IMG/VR virus record: IMGVR_UViG_3300029171_000045 | Coordinates: 1 to 24,769 of that record | Length of the DNA: 24,769 nucleotides | DNA from: a virus | Taxonomy: Duplodnaviria > Caudoviricetes | Reading direction: 5' to 3' (one strand) | Shown here: piece after piece, positions 5,375-24,769 of the stretch | Layout of the letters: the number at the start of each line of letters is the position of its first letter | How positions within the stretch are numbered: the first letter of the stretch is position 1 | Notes under the pieces: model-generated | What the model was told of the DNA's origin: nothing | The model's input: the letters and a program-made list of their open reading frames with translations, nothing else | The model's database searches: none | Translations under genes and position numbers: made by a program

Positions 5375-7459
5375 ATGGATGATAACAAAACGCAATATGA
5401 CGATAAAAGCATAAACCCAGAACGCAAGGTGGAAATTTTGGAACTTGCCTCGAAACGGTTTTCAGATTTTATTACAGCATCTGAATGGTGGTATATCAAT
5501 GAGTTAAAATCAAGTTATGCTATCTATGAAGGTGAGCAATGGAGCGAAGAGGCCAAAAGAAAATATGAAGCAGATGGAATAGAGATTTTTACAATTAACA
5601 AGACTGCCCCGATTGTGGATGCGATTTCTGGCTTTGAAATCCAAAACCGGACAGAGGTGAATTACCAGCCCCGCCTGAGTGATGAGGATAGTAGGGGTTT
5701 TTCGGACATAGCCTCCAGTGCTGTTAAATATTTTGAAAGCGATGCTTTTATTCCTGAGCAAAATTCCCATGCATTTTTGGATATGATAAAATGTGGCGTA
5801 GGGGCTACCCATACCACGTTTAACTATGAAGATAACCCTAGCGGCGAAGTGGAAATTGATAGGATTTTTCCTGGCATGGTGATGTGGGATCCAGCAGCCC
5901 GCAAAAAAAATATCAAAGATGCAAATTGGGTGGCTCGCGTTAAAGTTGTTGATAGTGATGTGATCGGCCAAGAATTTGGCATCCAAAATGATGGCACAGG
6001 ATTAACCGACTATGGATTTGATTTCACAAGGTTTTATGAATGGTATGATGGCTCTTTGCGCGGCGGAAAACTATCCGCAGTAATTGAGTATGAGTGGCGG
6101 GAGAAGAAGCCCATATACCGCGTAGAAAATCCTTTTTATGGGGTGGAGTCCGCTGAACAAGAAGGTCAAAATATGATTGACCCGGACTCATTGGCCTTTA
6201 TTGCGCAGTATAAACAGATCGCCAAGGAACGTTATGACATTACCCTGGAGGATAAAATTGTAACAATGATGCCTTTTGAATACCGCCAATTCCGCAAGGA
6301 TATGAAGGCATTGGATATATCTCCTAAAGCGACTAATCAAAAGATTTATCATTATTATCGCTGCATAATTGCCGACGGTAAATTGGTTGAATCGGGGGAA
6401 AACTACTCTCAAACAGGTTTTTCCATTAAATTTATGACAGGAAAATACAGCGAGACGCGCCAGTGTTTTTTTGGGGTTGTGAGGGCTGCAAGGGAGCCGC
6501 AACGTTTGCTAAATGAGTCTGTAAGTGATTACAAGGGTTATCTTTCTACTATCCCTAAAGGCGGGGTAGAAATCGAAAAAGGCGCGGTATCTGATTCAAA
6601 AGCTTTTATCCGAAACTATAGCAAAGCAAAACGTGTCACTATTTATGAAGATGGTGCATTAAGCCAAGGTAAAGTAAGGGCAAAAGTTGCGCCCCCATTA
6701 CCGCCGGGCATGGTGGAGATGGTGCCACAAGCTGGTCAATGGATGATGGAAAGTGTGGGTATCGATAATAATTTCATGGGGCAGATGGATAGTAAACTTA
6801 TGACTGCGCAATTACAGAGGCAGATCATAAGGCAAGGACTTACGACACTGTCGGTGTATTTTGATGCTAAGACCAACTATATGATTGATCACGGGAAATT
6901 ATTGATAGACTGCGTCCGCATTATGGCTGAAAATTCCCCCGGACGGTTGATCCGTAACGTGGCGGGGCAAGGGACGGCTAAATATCTTCCCTTATTTACC
7001 GATAACATCGCGGCGGAATATGATGTGGTTGTTGGTGAGGTGCCACAAACGCCAGGAGAACGCCAGGAAACCTTCTCCACTTTGGTAGAACTTTCGGATA
7101 AGCTAATGACAACTAAGGGTGTTGACATACTGCCAGTGGTGATGCGCTACTCGCCGCTGAAAAAGGCGGAGGTAGACGAAGTACTAGAACTTACCAAGCC
7201 AGTACCACAACAGCCTGATCCGCTCAACCAAATGCTTATAGAGTCCCAGATTGCCTTACAGCAAGCAAATGCGGCGAAACTTAAGGCCGATGCAACTAAA
7301 ATCCAATTGGAAGCATTATTAGCGCAAAAACAGTTGGAAACATACGATCAAGAAAAAGAAGCTGATATCACTGAAACAATGAGTACAGCAGTTTTGAACC
7401 AAGCAAAGGCTCACCAAACAGTAATGCCAGTGCAAATTAACACGCAAAATAGGGGATAA
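5375..7459 (+). CDS. Portal protein (P22-like)
   Basis: 694 aa after terL; YEGEQW..E, TINK.AP.VD.ISG.EIQNR, WDPAA....KDA.W, FGVVRAAREPQR.LN, YDVVV.E.P.TP.ER, and a Q/A-rich C-terminal coiled-coil barrel. Confidence 0.92.
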   Translation: MDDNKTQYDDKSINPERKVEILELASKRFSDFITASEWWYINELKSSYAIYEGEQWSEEAKRKYEADGIEIFTINKTAPIVDAISGFEIQNRTEVNYQPRLSDEDSRGFSDIASSAVKYFESDAFIPEQNSHAFLDMIKCGVGATHTTFNYEDNPSGEVEIDRIFPGMVMWDPAARKKNIKDANWVARVKVVDSDVIGQEFGIQNDGTGLTDYGFDFTRFYEWYDGSLRGGKLSAVIEYEWREKKPIYRVENPFYGVESAEQEGQNMIDPDSLAFIAQYKQIAKERYDITLEDKIVTMMPFEYRQFRKDMKALDISPKATNQKIYHYYRCIIADGKLVESGENYSQTGFSIKFMTGKYSETRQCFFGVVRAAREPQRLLNESVSDYKGYLSTIPKGGVEIEKGAVSDSKAFIRNYSKAKRVTIYEDGALSQGKVRAKVAPPLPPGMVEMVPQAGQWMMESVGIDNNFMGQMDSKLMTAQLQRQIIRQGLTTLSVYFDAKTNYMIDHGKLLIDCVRIMAENSPGRLIRNVAGQGTAKYLPLFTDNIAAEYDVVVGEVPQTPGERQETFSTLVELSDKLMTTKGVDILPVVMRYSPLKKAEVDEVLELTKPVPQQPDPLNQMLIESQIALQQANAAKLKADATKIQLEALLAQKQLETYDQEKEADITETMSTAVLNQAKAHQTVMPVQINTQNRG

Positions 7460-7462
7460 ACT

Positions 7463-8464
7463 ATGACCGATACATCCATTGAAAATATTACCAACCCAGA
7501 ATCTTTCCGTCAGATGCTTGCTGAGGTGCAGGGTTCCCCACAAGAAAGTGATTCTGTAGAACCTTCTGAAGACCAGGAAAGCCAAGGGGAAACCCCTGAT
7601 GTTCCCACAACGCAAGAAGATATGGAAACAGAACCCAAAAATGAGGGACAAAACCAAGACGACGAAGATGACGAAGATGGCTATGAACTTCACAAAAATG
7701 AAAATGGCGCTTTTGTTTCGCTTGGTGCAATGAAGAGAAAATCACAAGCAAACAAGGCATTAAAGGAACAGCTTAACAAACAACGTGAAGATTATATCGC
7801 GTTGAAAACGCAATATGATGCCATACAAGAGGCCATTAAGGAATTTATTCCTGCTAAAAATCAAGATTTCCAATCTTCAAATGATGATTTTGAACCACTA
7901 GATAGTGAAGCAGATCAACGCTATAAAAAGGAAATTAATACATTAAGGCAAGCGCAAGAAGAAACAAAGCATGCATTGGAATATCAACAAATGAGTATGG
8001 GAATTTCACAGATGGAACAGCAATTTTCTGTGACAGTCCCAGATTATGCGGATGCTGTAAATTTCTTGGCAAATAAGCAGATTGAAGAGGCTGCGGTATT
8101 CTTTGGTAAATCAAAGGATCAAGTCCATGATGCAGCTAAGGCGGCTTTAAGCCATATTGTGCACATATCTTATACTCAAGGCCGCAATCCTTCAGAAGTT
8201 ATATATAACTTGGCTAAAGCTAAAGGATTTACTGCGAAGAAAACAGCATCACCTCAGAAGGCAGAATCGGATATTGATGCGATCAATAAAAATATGAAAC
8301 GCAGTGCGTCCATTAATGGCATACCTTCATCTTCTGCGCCGTCTTCTAATGGAGCGTATCAGATCACCAATGAAAAATGGCAAGGTTTACTAAATGAGAA
8401 GAATGGTGTCGATAAAGATGCGTTTCACAAAGAGTTAGAACGTCTTAAAAAACTATCATCTTAA
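7463..8464 (+). CDS. Capsid scaffolding protein
   Basis: Between portal and capsid; acidic disordered N-terminus, coiled-coil middle, PDYADAV, RNPSEVIYNLAK, and a short C-terminal helical coat-binding-like segment. Confidence 0.8.
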   Translation: MTDTSIENITNPESFRQMLAEVQGSPQESDSVEPSEDQESQGETPDVPTTQEDMETEPKNEGQNQDDEDDEDGYELHKNENGAFVSLGAMKRKSQANKALKEQLNKQREDYIALKTQYDAIQEAIKEFIPAKNQDFQSSNDDFEPLDSEADQRYKKEINTLRQAQEETKHALEYQQMSMGISQMEQQFSVTVPDYADAVNFLANKQIEEAAVFFGKSKDQVHDAAKAALSHIVHISYTQGRNPSEVIYNLAKAKGFTAKKTASPQKAESDIDAINKNMKRSASINGIPSSSAPSSNGAYQITNEKWQGLLNEKNGVDKDAFHKELERLKKLSS

Positions 8465-8488
8465 ATTAAATATTGTTCAAAATATGTA

Positions 8489-8517
8489 TTGCTTTACAAT
8501 GCGGAGTGCGATAATAT
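8489..8517 (+). promoter_or_regulatory. Putative sigma70-type promoter for the capsid gene
   Basis: TTGCTT (8489-8494), 17 nt spacer, TAATAT (8512-8517), with AT-rich sequence upstream. Confidence 0.5.
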
Positions 8518-8533
8518 TGAACTATCGCACTCC
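8503..8533. repeat. Perfect 11 bp inverted repeat overlapping the putative -10 and start site
   Basis: GGAGTGCGATA (8503-8513), 9 nt spacer, TATCGCACTCC (8523-8533). Confidence 0.9.
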
Positions 8534-8645
8534 AGGGATACGATAGTTCCTACGTCAGCCGCACGATACGCGGTGCGGTGTTGCCGTCCGATAACGGTAC
8601 GTGAAGAAGAGCGATAAACAAACCCTTTTGTTTATCATTCACGTA
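8523..8645 (+). ncRNA. Candidate structured RNA / capsid mRNA leader with three CGAUA-loop hairpins and a long 3' hairpin
   Basis: Hairpins at 8534-8551 (loop ACGAUA), 8558-8574 (loop ACGAUAC) and 8582-8599 (loop CCGAUA), each with G-U pairs. A nested stem follows: 8598-8605/8638-8645 plus 8613-8622/8627-8636. Confidence 0.6.
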
Positions 8646-8657
8646 TTGGTTAAAATT

Positions 8658-9773
8658 ATGTCATTTACTACCTTCAGTGTATCTGATGTGCAGACCTTGA
8701 AATTATGGTCTAAACGTCTTCTTCAAGACAATATTTCCAATGAAACTTTAATTGGCGGCTTTTTAAGTGATAAAGTCTTAGTGCGTCAAGATGAGTTACA
8801 ACGTAGCGCAGGGGACCAAATTAAAATTCACCTCCGTAGAAGGCTATCTACTAAAGGTTTTATTGGTGATGAGATGGCCACCTCAAATGAAAAATCCCTA
8901 ACCTATTTCCAGGATTCATTGCTCATTAACGAACAGCGCGAAGTTGTTCAGAATTCTGCAAAAAATACCATAGGTCAACAGCGTGTCCTATTTAATTTGG
9001 AAGAAGATACCTATGAAACATTGCGGGATTGGTTTAGGGAGAAAATGATTGTCGGAACGCTCAACCAACTTGTTGGTAATACAGCGCCTTCAATTACTTA
9101 TGATGGCGACACTTATACTGGTGCTGATTTGGTAAAGATCACCGGTATGAATGCTGCCCGTGCCCCTTCTGGCACTGGGCGTATATTCCGTCCAAACTCC
9201 CTCACAACCGATCAAGCGGTAAATGGTGATACGACAGCAACCGCTAAATTATCCCATATTCTTGAAATGGAAAAGTTTGCTGAAAAAACAAGGCCATATT
9301 TCAAGCCATTGGATGGGAAAATGGATGGGGAGAGCTATAAGTATCTCTACCTAGTCCATACGGATGTGTTTAACCAGTTGCTTGAAGATACGACCGCGCC
9401 TTATCAATTCCGTGATATTTACTACAACCGCCTAGCGGCTGGTAAAATGATGGGATTCGGGCGCAGTGGTGTTTTCAGCCAAACAAAGATCATGTCCATT
9501 GATAAGCTTCCATTTGGTGTTCATTCTTCCACGGGTGCTGAACAGACAAATACCCGTCGCGGGGTATTCCTCGGGCGCGAAGCAGGGGCTTTGGCTTTCG
9601 GTCAAGGATTCTCTGATGGCAAAGACACCATCGCGGGTTTCATGTTCAAAACAGATCAAGTTGACGTTCAAAAACTTGACCGTATTGCAGTGGTAGGTAT
9701 TTGGGGTGTCGTGAAAACGGTATTCGATTCAATCGATTATGGCACGATCGCCACAACCCATTACACAGCATAA
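8658..9773 (+). CDS. Major capsid protein (N4-gp56/DUF4043-like, HK97 fold inferred)
   Basis: KLWSKRL, DELQRSAGDQI...L...L...G..GDE....NE..L......L.INEQR, QQR..FNL, RRGVFLGREAG.LAFG, IWGV.KT.F...DYG.I. The ATG at 8658 is preferred over the GTG at 8601, which lies inside the hairpin leader. Confidence 0.9.
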   Translation: MSFTTFSVSDVQTLKLWSKRLLQDNISNETLIGGFLSDKVLVRQDELQRSAGDQIKIHLRRRLSTKGFIGDEMATSNEKSLTYFQDSLLINEQREVVQNSAKNTIGQQRVLFNLEEDTYETLRDWFREKMIVGTLNQLVGNTAPSITYDGDTYTGADLVKITGMNAARAPSGTGRIFRPNSLTTDQAVNGDTTATAKLSHILEMEKFAEKTRPYFKPLDGKMDGESYKYLYLVHTDVFNQLLEDTTAPYQFRDIYYNRLAAGKMMGFGRSGVFSQTKIMSIDKLPFGVHSSTGAEQTNTRRGVFLGREAGALAFGQGFSDGKDTIAGFMFKTDQVDVQKLDRIAVVGIWGVVKTVFDSIDYGTIATTHYTA

Positions 9774-10266: not shown

Positions 10267-10278
10267 ATAATAAAAGAT

Positions 10279-10312
10279 TGGGATGCTAACATCATAAATA
10301 GTTAGCATCCCA
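10279..10312 (+). terminator. 12 bp hairpin, possible terminator/attenuator or RNA processing site
   Basis: TGGGATGCTAAC, 10 nt loop, GTTAGCATCCCA. There is no clean U-tract, only T-rich sequence a little further downstream. Confidence 0.55.
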
Positions 10313-10355
10313 TCCTATGTAATTATTTCTTTCATTTAGACGGAAAGGCTACGTT

Positions 10356-24668: not shown

Positions 24669-24752
24669 ATCCTAAGCCGCCATAAGAAATATAAGCCATT
24701 AAAGATGTTTACCTTTATAGGCTTGCTGAAAGATCGCATAATTTGCGTTATA

Positions 24753-24769
24753 GATCGTGACTGGGAAAC
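24753..24769 (-). other. Random-amplification primer remnant (Round A/B / SISPA primer B), a technical artifact
   Basis: The reverse complement of the last 17 nt is GTTTCCCAGTCACGATC, and it ends exactly at the contig end. Confidence 0.9.

What the first reader, a model, noticed from the sequence alone, without database searches (positions are those of the whole stretch)
8534..8616. Array of CGAUA-loop hairpins in the major capsid leader: candidate undescribed structured RNA or protein-binding platform
Seen: CGATA occurs at 8509, 8541, 8564, 8589 and 8612, plus once inverted at 8523; the last four are spaced 23, 25 and 23 nt. Three copies sit in the loops of consecutive hairpins with unrelated stem sequences: AGGGAU-ACGAUA-GUUCCU, GCCGC-ACGAUAC-GCGGU and UGCCGU-CCGAUA-ACGGUA. 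Each stem uses G-U pairs, which favours RNA on the + strand over a DNA cruciform. A constant loop on variable stems is the design of multivalent protein-binding RNAs such as the GGA loops of CsrB/RsmZ (established), but the loop here differs and I do not recognise the family. Inference: a phage protein (scaffold, capsid or a small early protein) binds these loops to tune capsid synthesis or nucleate assembly, or the RNA titrates a host protein. Post-transcriptional autoregulation by P22 scaffold is a known precedent for control at this locus.
Basis: partly seen in the sequence, partly recalled or inferred. Interest (0 to 1): 0.85.

Follow-up and report, generated by a model that had tools for sequence, protein, structure and literature searches.

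The report
Tandem pseudoknot leader of capsid mRNA
The DNA in front of this phage's major capsid gene encodes three small hairpins, two of which are predicted to close into RNA pseudoknots by a pairing that changes in step across dozens of related phages, and the last knot likely decides whether the ribosome-loading site is open, making it a candidate uncatalogued control element for capsid production.

Summary
The three hairpins (8534-8599) exist and the CGATA cluster exceeds chance; the copies at 8509, 8523 and 8612 lie in stems. In 69 non-redundant PF13252 capsid leaders the conserved loop is CG-N-(U/C/A)-A, not CGAUA (10 of 91). Its CG pairs with a CG just upstream of the same hairpin. The flanking third pair is Watson-Crick in 91 of 138 units (38.6 expected; within-leader control 78 of 121 against 57.6), and the downstream-CG control is null. 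So these are tandem mini H-type pseudoknots, not open CsrB-like loops. In this phage's clade the last knot's 3' strand can instead pair over the ribosome-binding region (16 of 25 leaders; controls 6.9 and 2.7), nearly isoenergetic in the window. Best reading: a cis translational control leader. Function is untested, no RNA run was listed, and one competing window hairpin beats unit 2. No Rfam match. Two anonymous published candidates upstream of N4-type capsids (PMC10690425) may overlap; I could not read their alignments. This scan noted this element class before on other DNA (125 notes).

The parts
7463..8464 (+). Upstream gene, probable capsid scaffolding protein (333 aa)
   Evidence: Lies between the P22-like portal (PF16510) and the capsid. 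No Pfam, PHROG or NCBIfam match. The nearest named ESM Atlas cluster is scaffold-like (score 0.92, PF09306 in 13% of members; a lead only).
8473..8500 (+). Weak sigma-70-like promoter candidate (8 of 12 consensus matches, 16-nt spacer)
   Evidence: Best match; below the scanner threshold (one search found none on +). Homologous leaders have a match of 9 of 12 or better in 8 of 25 (shuffle mean 1.8) and 4 of 44 (0.4).
8503..8533 (+). Perfect 11-bp inverted repeat holding the CGATA copies at 8509 and 8523; likely a 5'-terminal hairpin, or a DNA operator
   Evidence: -18.3 kcal/mol; present in both minimum-energy folds.
8534..8551 (+). Unit 1: hairpin (8534-8539/8546-8551) with the family loop but no 3-bp upstream partner
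   Evidence: third pair not Watson-Crick. First units lack a partner in 25 of 50 multi-unit leaders.
8553..8574 (+). Unit 2: predicted H-type pseudoknot. S1 8553-8555/8563-8565, L1 2 nt, S2 8558-8562/8570-8574, L3 4 nt
   Evidence: A competing 7-bp hairpin (8558-8564/8573-8579) is 5.7 kcal/mol more stable than S2 alone in a model without pseudoknots.
8576..8599 (+). Unit 3: predicted H-type pseudoknot. S1 8576-8578/8588-8590, L1 3 nt, S2 8582-8587/8594-8599, L3 3 nt
   Evidence: It ends 58 nt before the ATG.
8595..8648 (+). Terminal helix: core 8600-8605/8638-8643, plus an extension 8595-8599/8644-8648 that uses 5 of the 6 bases of unit 3's S2 3' strand and reaches the ribosome-binding region
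   Evidence: -19.7 kcal/mol with unit 3 open against -18.8 with unit 3 S2 formed, before S1 is counted. The same layout recurs with compensatory changes in the clade.
8613..8636 (+). A/U-rich inner hairpin (10 bp) inside the terminal helix; the CGATA at 8612 runs into it
   Evidence: Pair probabilities 0.6-0.98.
8658..9773 (+). Major capsid protein gene (371 aa; Pfam PF13252, PHROG 334)
   Evidence: Homologues align from this Met. It scores below the TIGR04387 cut-off (17.9 against 60 bits).

Best explanation
The region is predicted to be the 5' leader of the major capsid mRNA, folded into tandem mini H-type pseudoknots whose extra pairing covaries across related phages, and in this clade the last knot likely acts as a translational on/off element by holding a strand that would otherwise pair over the ribosome-binding region. 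Shown by sequence comparison: the repeat unit (CG-X, short linker, 4-6-bp stem, X'-CG, short loop with A at position 3, closing strand), its confinement to the 200 nt before the capsid start, and the overlap of the last unit with a terminal helix. Inferred: the units fold in order during transcription and stack into a compact rod that likely protects the message and leaves the site open (ON). When the last knot fails to fold, or a protein opens it, the terminal helix would extend over the site (OFF). The trigger is unknown; free scaffold or capsid protein, or host ribosomal protein S1, are the likely candidates.
For: 177 hairpin units in 69 non-redundant leaders against a shuffle mean of 50 (maximum 64 in 50 sets); reverse strand 52, coding control 56. 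Third S1 pair, not used in selection: Watson-Crick in 91 of 138 against 38.6 permuted (0 of 10000); within-leader swap 78 of 121 against 57.6 (0 of 10000); downstream-CG control 29 of 120 against 33.7. All four Watson-Crick types occur. On 14 same-geometry units 92% of cells pair and 29 cells change on both sides, 0 of 500 shuffles. CG is specific: 100 knots against at most 19 for any other dinucleotide; A at loop position 3 in 66% without selecting for it; 0.5-0.8 knots per 100 nt in -200..0 against at most 0.15 elsewhere. Terminal duplex of -6 kcal/mol or better in 16 of 25 near leaders against 6.9 (tail swap, maximum 12) and 2.7 (shuffle), with overlap of the last S2 by 2 or more bases detected in 8. 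The base next to the CG changes in step (A-U, G-C, U-A, and for the window). The two window states lie within 0.9 kcal/mol. Precedent: the T4 gene 32 leader pseudoknot 67 nt upstream of the AUG (PMC3014915, passages).
Against: No expression or probing data. 47 of 138 units lack the Watson-Crick third pair, and it is kept in only 8 of 14 in the curated set. First units lack a partner in 25 of 50. A fold without pseudoknots keeps S2 in only 33 of 91 units. In the window a 7-bp alternative hairpin beats unit 2's S2 by 5.7 kcal/mol and would remove both S1 helices. The 44 more distant leaders show no terminal helix above controls (13 against 10.3 and 15.7), so the switch is not family-wide. The window's Shine-Dalgarno pairing is weak (-2.2 kcal/mol). 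G-U is not enriched over A-C (16 against 11). No conserved small RNA-binding gene was seen between scaffold and capsid in the 18 leaders with long gaps.
Confidence: 0.45

Rival explanations
1. Constitutive stabiliser or translational enhancer: the stacked pseudoknots block nuclease access and keep the leader folded locally, with no regulated switch; the terminal helix is only a structure 5' of an open site.
For: 44 distant leaders carry knots but no terminal helix above controls, and have an A/C-rich spacer instead. Copy number varies from 1 to 4. Promoter-like sites are enriched just upstream. Tandem pseudoknots enhance translation in the TMV upstream pseudoknot domain (PMC10870377, passages).
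Against: It does not explain why the last S2 strand stays complementary to the ribosome-binding region through compensatory change, nor the invariant CG and loop A.
Confidence: 0.3
2. One reading: open hairpin loops form a multivalent, CsrB-like landing pad for a phage or host protein.
For: The loop motif is kept even in first units that lack a pairing partner (25 of 50). CG and loop A are sequence-specific. A sister branch of this capsid family has a CsrA-like gene directly before the capsid gene (PMC9144972, passages).
Against: The loop base before CG covaries with the upstream linker, which open loops would not need. CG-AUA is only 10 of 91. No CsrA-like gene was found in the window or its related loci.
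Confidence: 0.1
3. The array is cut out or made as a small RNA that acts in trans, for example as a decoy for a host defence nuclease, like the pseudoknot repeats of type III antitoxins (recalled).
For: Tandem short pseudoknots with a fixed core; candidate promoters upstream.
Against: Units are not sequence repeats, no terminator follows, there is no Rfam match, and the position is fixed at the capsid start.
Confidence: 0.07
4. The elements act as DNA: repressor operators or single-stranded DNA hairpins near a late promoter.
For: A perfect 11-bp inverted repeat abuts the candidate promoter. G-U is not enriched over A-C.
Against: Interleaved covariation with 1-3-nt and 3-7-nt connecting loops matches RNA H-type geometry (established knowledge), and stems differ within one array, unlike operator repeats.
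Confidence: 0.05

Closest known systems
T4/T2/RB69 gene 32 translational operator (PMC3014915, passages read)
   Same: Phage mRNA leader with an H-type pseudoknot about 60 nt upstream of the start (67 nt there, 58 nt here), followed by an A/U-rich stretch.
   Different: There a single knot, bound by the ssDNA-binding gene product, precedes an unstructured site. Here there are two or more knots with an invariant CG/CG end, a capsid gene, and a competing helix over the site.
Upstream pseudoknot domain of tobamovirus and hordeivirus 3' UTRs (PMC10870377, passages read)
   Same: Consecutive small pseudoknots joined by short linkers; a role in translation.
   Different: That is the 3' UTR of a plant RNA virus and binds eEF1A; this is the 5' leader of a dsDNA phage gene. 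No homology is claimed.
CsrB/RsmZ sRNAs and CsrA-bound leaders (features recalled)
   Same: Repeated short hairpins with a recurring loop motif.
   Different: No GGA loops, loops predicted to be paired, cis position, no terminator.
Candidate RNAs DNAVirus_3698 (85 nt, 180 sequences) and DNAVirus_865 (62 nt, 139 sequences) of PMC10690425 (supplementary table rows read)
   Same: Structured RNA candidates within 25 bp upstream of capsid_maj_N4 genes (37 and 4 cases).
   Different: Identity with this element could not be checked because the alignments and diagrams were unreadable. The window's capsid is below the TIGR04387 cut-off, and the main text does not describe pseudoknots for them.
P22 scaffolding-protein autoregulation (reference title only; otherwise recalled)
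   Same: Post-transcriptional control within a podovirus head module.
   Different: It controls the scaffold gene, and I know of no pseudoknot array there; here the element precedes the capsid gene.

Membership tests
H-type pseudoknot (fold class) | Loop of one stem pairs with a flanking strand in A-B-A'-B' order, with covariation | tested here: met
   91 of 138 against 38.6; within-leader 78 of 121 against 57.6; downstream control null.
H-type pseudoknot (fold class) | Loop lengths compatible with crossing both grooves | tested here: met
   L1 mostly 0-3, L2 0-1 in 74 of 91, L3 3-8 nt.
H-type pseudoknot (fold class) | Forms in solution or in vivo | not testable with these tools
   Needs probing; a competing window hairpin exists.
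CsrB/RsmZ family | GGA in hairpin loops | tested here: not met
   GGA only at 8503 and 8536, both in stems.
CsrB/RsmZ family | Stand-alone sRNA with a terminator; Rfam match | tested here: not met
   No terminator-like site; no Rfam hit.
T4 gene 32 operator | Leader pseudoknot followed by an A/U-rich stretch before the start | tested here: met
   Last knot ends 58 nt before the ATG; the near-clade spacer is 82% A+U.
T4 gene 32 operator | Precedes an ssDNA-binding protein gene | tested here: not met
   The downstream gene is the major capsid.
T4 gene 32 operator | Autogenous repression by the gene product | not testable with these tools
   Needs binding and reporter assays.
Tobamovirus upstream pseudoknot domain | Three consecutive pseudoknots in the 3' UTR of a plant RNA virus | tested here: not met
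   5' leader of a dsDNA phage gene; no Rfam hit.
Type III antitoxin arrays (recalled) | Near-identical pseudoknot repeats upstream of a toxin gene, with a terminator between | tested here: not met
   Stems are unrelated, the next gene is the capsid, no terminator.
Any Rfam 15 family | Score at or above the gathering threshold | tested here: not met
   0 in the window and 0 in 20 homologous loci; only sub-threshold chance hits at E up to 10.
DNAVirus_3698 / DNAVirus_865 candidates | Match to their covariance models | not testable with these tools
   Only table rows were readable; alignment archives and diagrams were not.

The most novel reading that the evidence does not exclude
A widespread, uncatalogued class of phage RNA regulators: modular CG-capped mini-pseudoknots stacked in capsid leaders, each a binding site for a head-assembly protein, so that the array counts free scaffold or capsid subunits and flips the last knot to shut capsid translation. 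This would be an RNA sensor of virion stoichiometry.
Probability: 0.2. Interest if true: 0.85.

Novelty: new variant of a known kind. Interest (0 to 1): 0.62.

Why it matters
How tailed phages make a large excess of capsid protein and match it to scaffold is largely unexplained at the RNA level outside a few models. A 22-25-nt pseudoknot module with an invariant core, found across capsids as little as 26% identical and in cultured phages of harmless hosts (Paracoccus, Rhizobium), gives a directly testable handle. It would also be one of the smallest natural pseudoknot modules and a possible part for engineering mRNA stability or translation. A review (PMC3014915, 2010) noted that the T4-type gene 32 knot might be the only viral pseudoknot known in translational autoregulation.

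Tried and rejected
Rfam at gathering and E-value thresholds: nothing. Single-protein search of viral contigs: no relatives. GTDB searches: none with the near-clade alignment, 4 distant loci with a cultured-phage capsid; the host stays unknown, and cluster look-ups gave no host names. RNA runs: none was listed, which is no evidence either way. A DNA-pattern scan for last loop plus terminal helix gave 17 stretches, 0 of 17 before a capsid gene. A 22-position covariance model recovered only its training unit in the array, missing units 1 and 3, so it is too weak to use. Loop pairing with the downstream CG was rejected (29 of 120 against 33.7), as was outward extension of S1 (29 of 138 against 31.2). 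G-U against A-C strand test: inconclusive (45 against 34; 16 against 11). The in-frame GTG at 8601 was rejected as the main start because homologues align from 8658. Literature searches listed no paper describing such arrays in capsid leaders; 'tandem pseudoknots' had 0 occurrences in the 20 papers listed, and most subscription papers are not searched. The tree is the quick version; the careful search did not finish.

Full report
Setting. The window is a whole 24,769-nt contig of a podovirus-like phage: terminase, P22-like portal (5375-7459), a 333-aa probable scaffold (7463-8464), a PF13252 major capsid gene (8658-9773) and a lysozyme. The finding lies in the 193-nt gap between scaffold and capsid. 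The scaffold name rests on position and a weak Atlas lead. The host is unknown.

Observation. All six CGATA positions and the three hairpins are as stated. Five plus-strand copies in the gap compare with 0.45 expected; 0 of 5000 shuffles reached five, and any 5-mer did so in 3 of 3000. The region folds with z = -5.3. Three copies are not loops: 8509 and 8523 are the arms of an 11-bp inverted repeat (8503-8533, -18.3 kcal/mol), and 8612 runs into an A/U-rich stem. Rfam has no match in the window or in 20 homologous loci.

Homologous leaders. An alignment of 33 capsids retrieved the best 80 of 159 viral and the best 80 of 101 metagenome loci; three cultured phages were added. Of these 163 loci plus the window, 129 had a capsid start with at least 200 nt upstream, 101 were distinct, and 69 remained after removing similar leaders. 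I searched them for hairpins of 4 or more pairs whose loop holds CG-N-(U/C/A)-A, without using any other pairing. This gave 177 units, in 65 of 69 leaders, against a shuffle mean of 50 (maximum 64), 52 on the reverse strand and 56 in coding controls.

The loops are paired. In 138 units a CG lies just upstream of the stem. The base after that CG and the base before the loop CG form a Watson-Crick pair in 91 of 138, against 38.6 by permutation (0 of 10000). Swapping partners only within a leader, which keeps ancestry and composition, gives 57.6 against 78 of 121 observed (0 of 10000). The same test with the CG downstream of the hairpin is null (29 of 120 against 33.7). The strand order is that of an H-type pseudoknot: S1 3-4 bp, S2 mostly 4-6 bp, L1 0-3, L2 0-1, L3 3-8 nt. 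Such knots occur in 54 of 69 leaders, two or more in 28. On 14 same-geometry units, 92% of cells pair, all five S2 pairs and the third S1 pair change on both sides, and slid controls fall to 29-46%; the third pair holds in 8 of 14. S2 was selected for pairing, so only the S1 result is an independent test. CG is specific (100 against at most 19 for other dinucleotides), loop position 3 is A in 66% of 160 knots found without asking for it, and knots are confined to the 200 nt before the start. CG-AUA is only 10 of 91; UCA, UUA and UAA are commoner. In the window units 2 and 3 fit, with different third pairs; unit 1 has no 3-bp partner, like 25 of 50 first units.

A clade-specific overlap with the ribosome-binding region. 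After the last unit the window has a helix (8600-8605/8638-8643) that can extend by five pairs (8595-8599/8644-8648) at the cost of unit 3's S2: -19.7 against -18.8 kcal/mol before S1 is counted. Among the 25 leaders with capsids at least 39% identical, 16 have a terminal duplex of -6 kcal/mol or better, against 6.9 with swapped tails (maximum 12) and 2.7 with shuffled tails. A knot directly before it was detected in 9, and overlap of two or more bases in 8. In most, the extension pairs with the AGG of the Shine-Dalgarno sequence, and the base beside the CG changes in step. The 44 more distant leaders show no such signal (13 against 10.3 and 15.7) and have an A/C-rich spacer. A quick tree of 68 capsids (one partial row dropped) splits 25 from 43 rows with SH-aLRT 100, with knots on both sides. 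Promoter-like sites are enriched upstream of the arrays (8 of 25 against 1.8; 4 of 44 against 0.4), but the window's best match is only 8 of 12.

Results against. A fold without pseudoknots keeps S2 in only 33 of 91 units. In the window a 7-bp hairpin (8558-8564/8573-8579, -12.8) beats unit 2's S2 (-7.1) and would remove both S1 helices; pseudoknot energies were not computed. G-U is not enriched over A-C, so the case for RNA rests on geometry and position. The window's Shine-Dalgarno pairing is weak (-2.2). Nothing here shows expression, folding in vivo or protein binding.

Range. The strict detector found knots in 4 of 14 named leaders: Microcystis phage Mae-JY35, Rhizobium phage RHph_Y1_10, Paracoccus phage KLEP18-1 and a Pseudochrobactrum prophage. 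It found none in eight more distant cultured phages, nor in L164 and L165. In one distant branch a CsrA-like gene sits directly before the capsid gene (PMC9144972, passages); no such gene was found in the window or its related loci at E up to 0.01. This suggests, as inference, that capsid translation in this family is controlled after transcription by more than one device.

Mechanism. Shown: the unit, its covariation, its position and the overlap of the last unit with the terminal helix. Inferred: the units fold during transcription and stack; the last one holds the strand that could cover the ribosome site; failure or protein-driven opening extends the helix and lowers translation. S1 unfolds weak H-type pseudoknots (PMC7038950, abstract), which makes it one candidate trigger; scaffold or capsid protein are others. 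I give this 0.45, a constitutive stabiliser or enhancer 0.30, open-loop protein display 0.10, a trans RNA 0.07 and a DNA role 0.05. That the knots are real and selected I put near 0.9.

Known systems and novelty. It works most like the T4 gene 32 leader (PMC3014915, passages) and is built like the tobamovirus upstream pseudoknot domain (PMC10870377, passages), but fails membership of both, and of CsrB and type III antitoxin arrays (recalled). Passages of PMC5737381 and bioRxiv 10.64898/2026.09.22.753630 hold no occurrence of 'capsid'. PMC10690425 lists two anonymous candidates upstream of capsid_maj_N4 genes; their alignments could not be read, so overlap is open. Eight literature searches listed no description of such arrays. 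My pseudoknot reading was written before the first look-up. The scan's notes then showed 125 earlier findings holding the words pseudoknot, capsid and leader, in at least 123 genomes, of which 8 were shown (one more), and none on this genome or for this capsid. These are unchecked leads, not support. Verdict: a real, family-wide structured RNA; new variant of a known kind; interest 0.62.

Noticed in passing
L193:29-223, L194:137-319, L190:1193-1402, L192:147-278: A CsrA-like gene lies directly upstream of the capsid leader in Burkholderia, Serratia, Klebsiella and Erwinia phages. By eye the leaders share a short hairpin (GGA loop in L193 and L198, a variant loop in L190, L192, L194) next to a helix ending at the Shine-Dalgarno site: a possible phage-encoded regulator-site pair. 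PMC9144972 treats the gene as a moron of unknown role.
   Followed up: partly
window 8601-8657: An in-frame GTG inside the terminal helix could give a 19-aa N-terminal extension of the capsid protein; homologues align from 8658.
   Followed up: no
window 10278-10314: Long inverted repeat between the gene after the capsid gene and the next one; terminator-like position but no clear U tail.
   Followed up: no
L044:1727-2207 (minus strand): A two-gene insert that looks like a type II toxin-antitoxin pair (Txe/YoeB-like by eye, recalled) sits between scaffold and capsid leader.
   Followed up: no
L002:1798-2373, L003:1708-2286: HNH endonuclease genes are inserted between scaffold and capsid just upstream of the array, which stays intact.
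   Followed up: no
L004:2322-2357, L036 and L014 upstream of the first unit: Long inverted repeats flank or follow the candidate promoter in many near-clade leaders, like the window's 8503-8533; sequence is not conserved.
   Followed up: no
window 24735-24756: A hairpin with the family loop at the contig end scored E = 0.06 with the weak model; not before a known gene, probably chance.
   Followed up: partly
L165: A contig filed under Bacillus subtilis carries a capsid and leader very like those of the Pseudochrobactrum prophage L166, which suggests a mixed assembly.
   Followed up: no
window, whole: CGATA is over-represented window-wide (51 against 34.7 expected, 0 of 100 shuffles), which slightly raises the background for the cluster.
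   Followed up: partly
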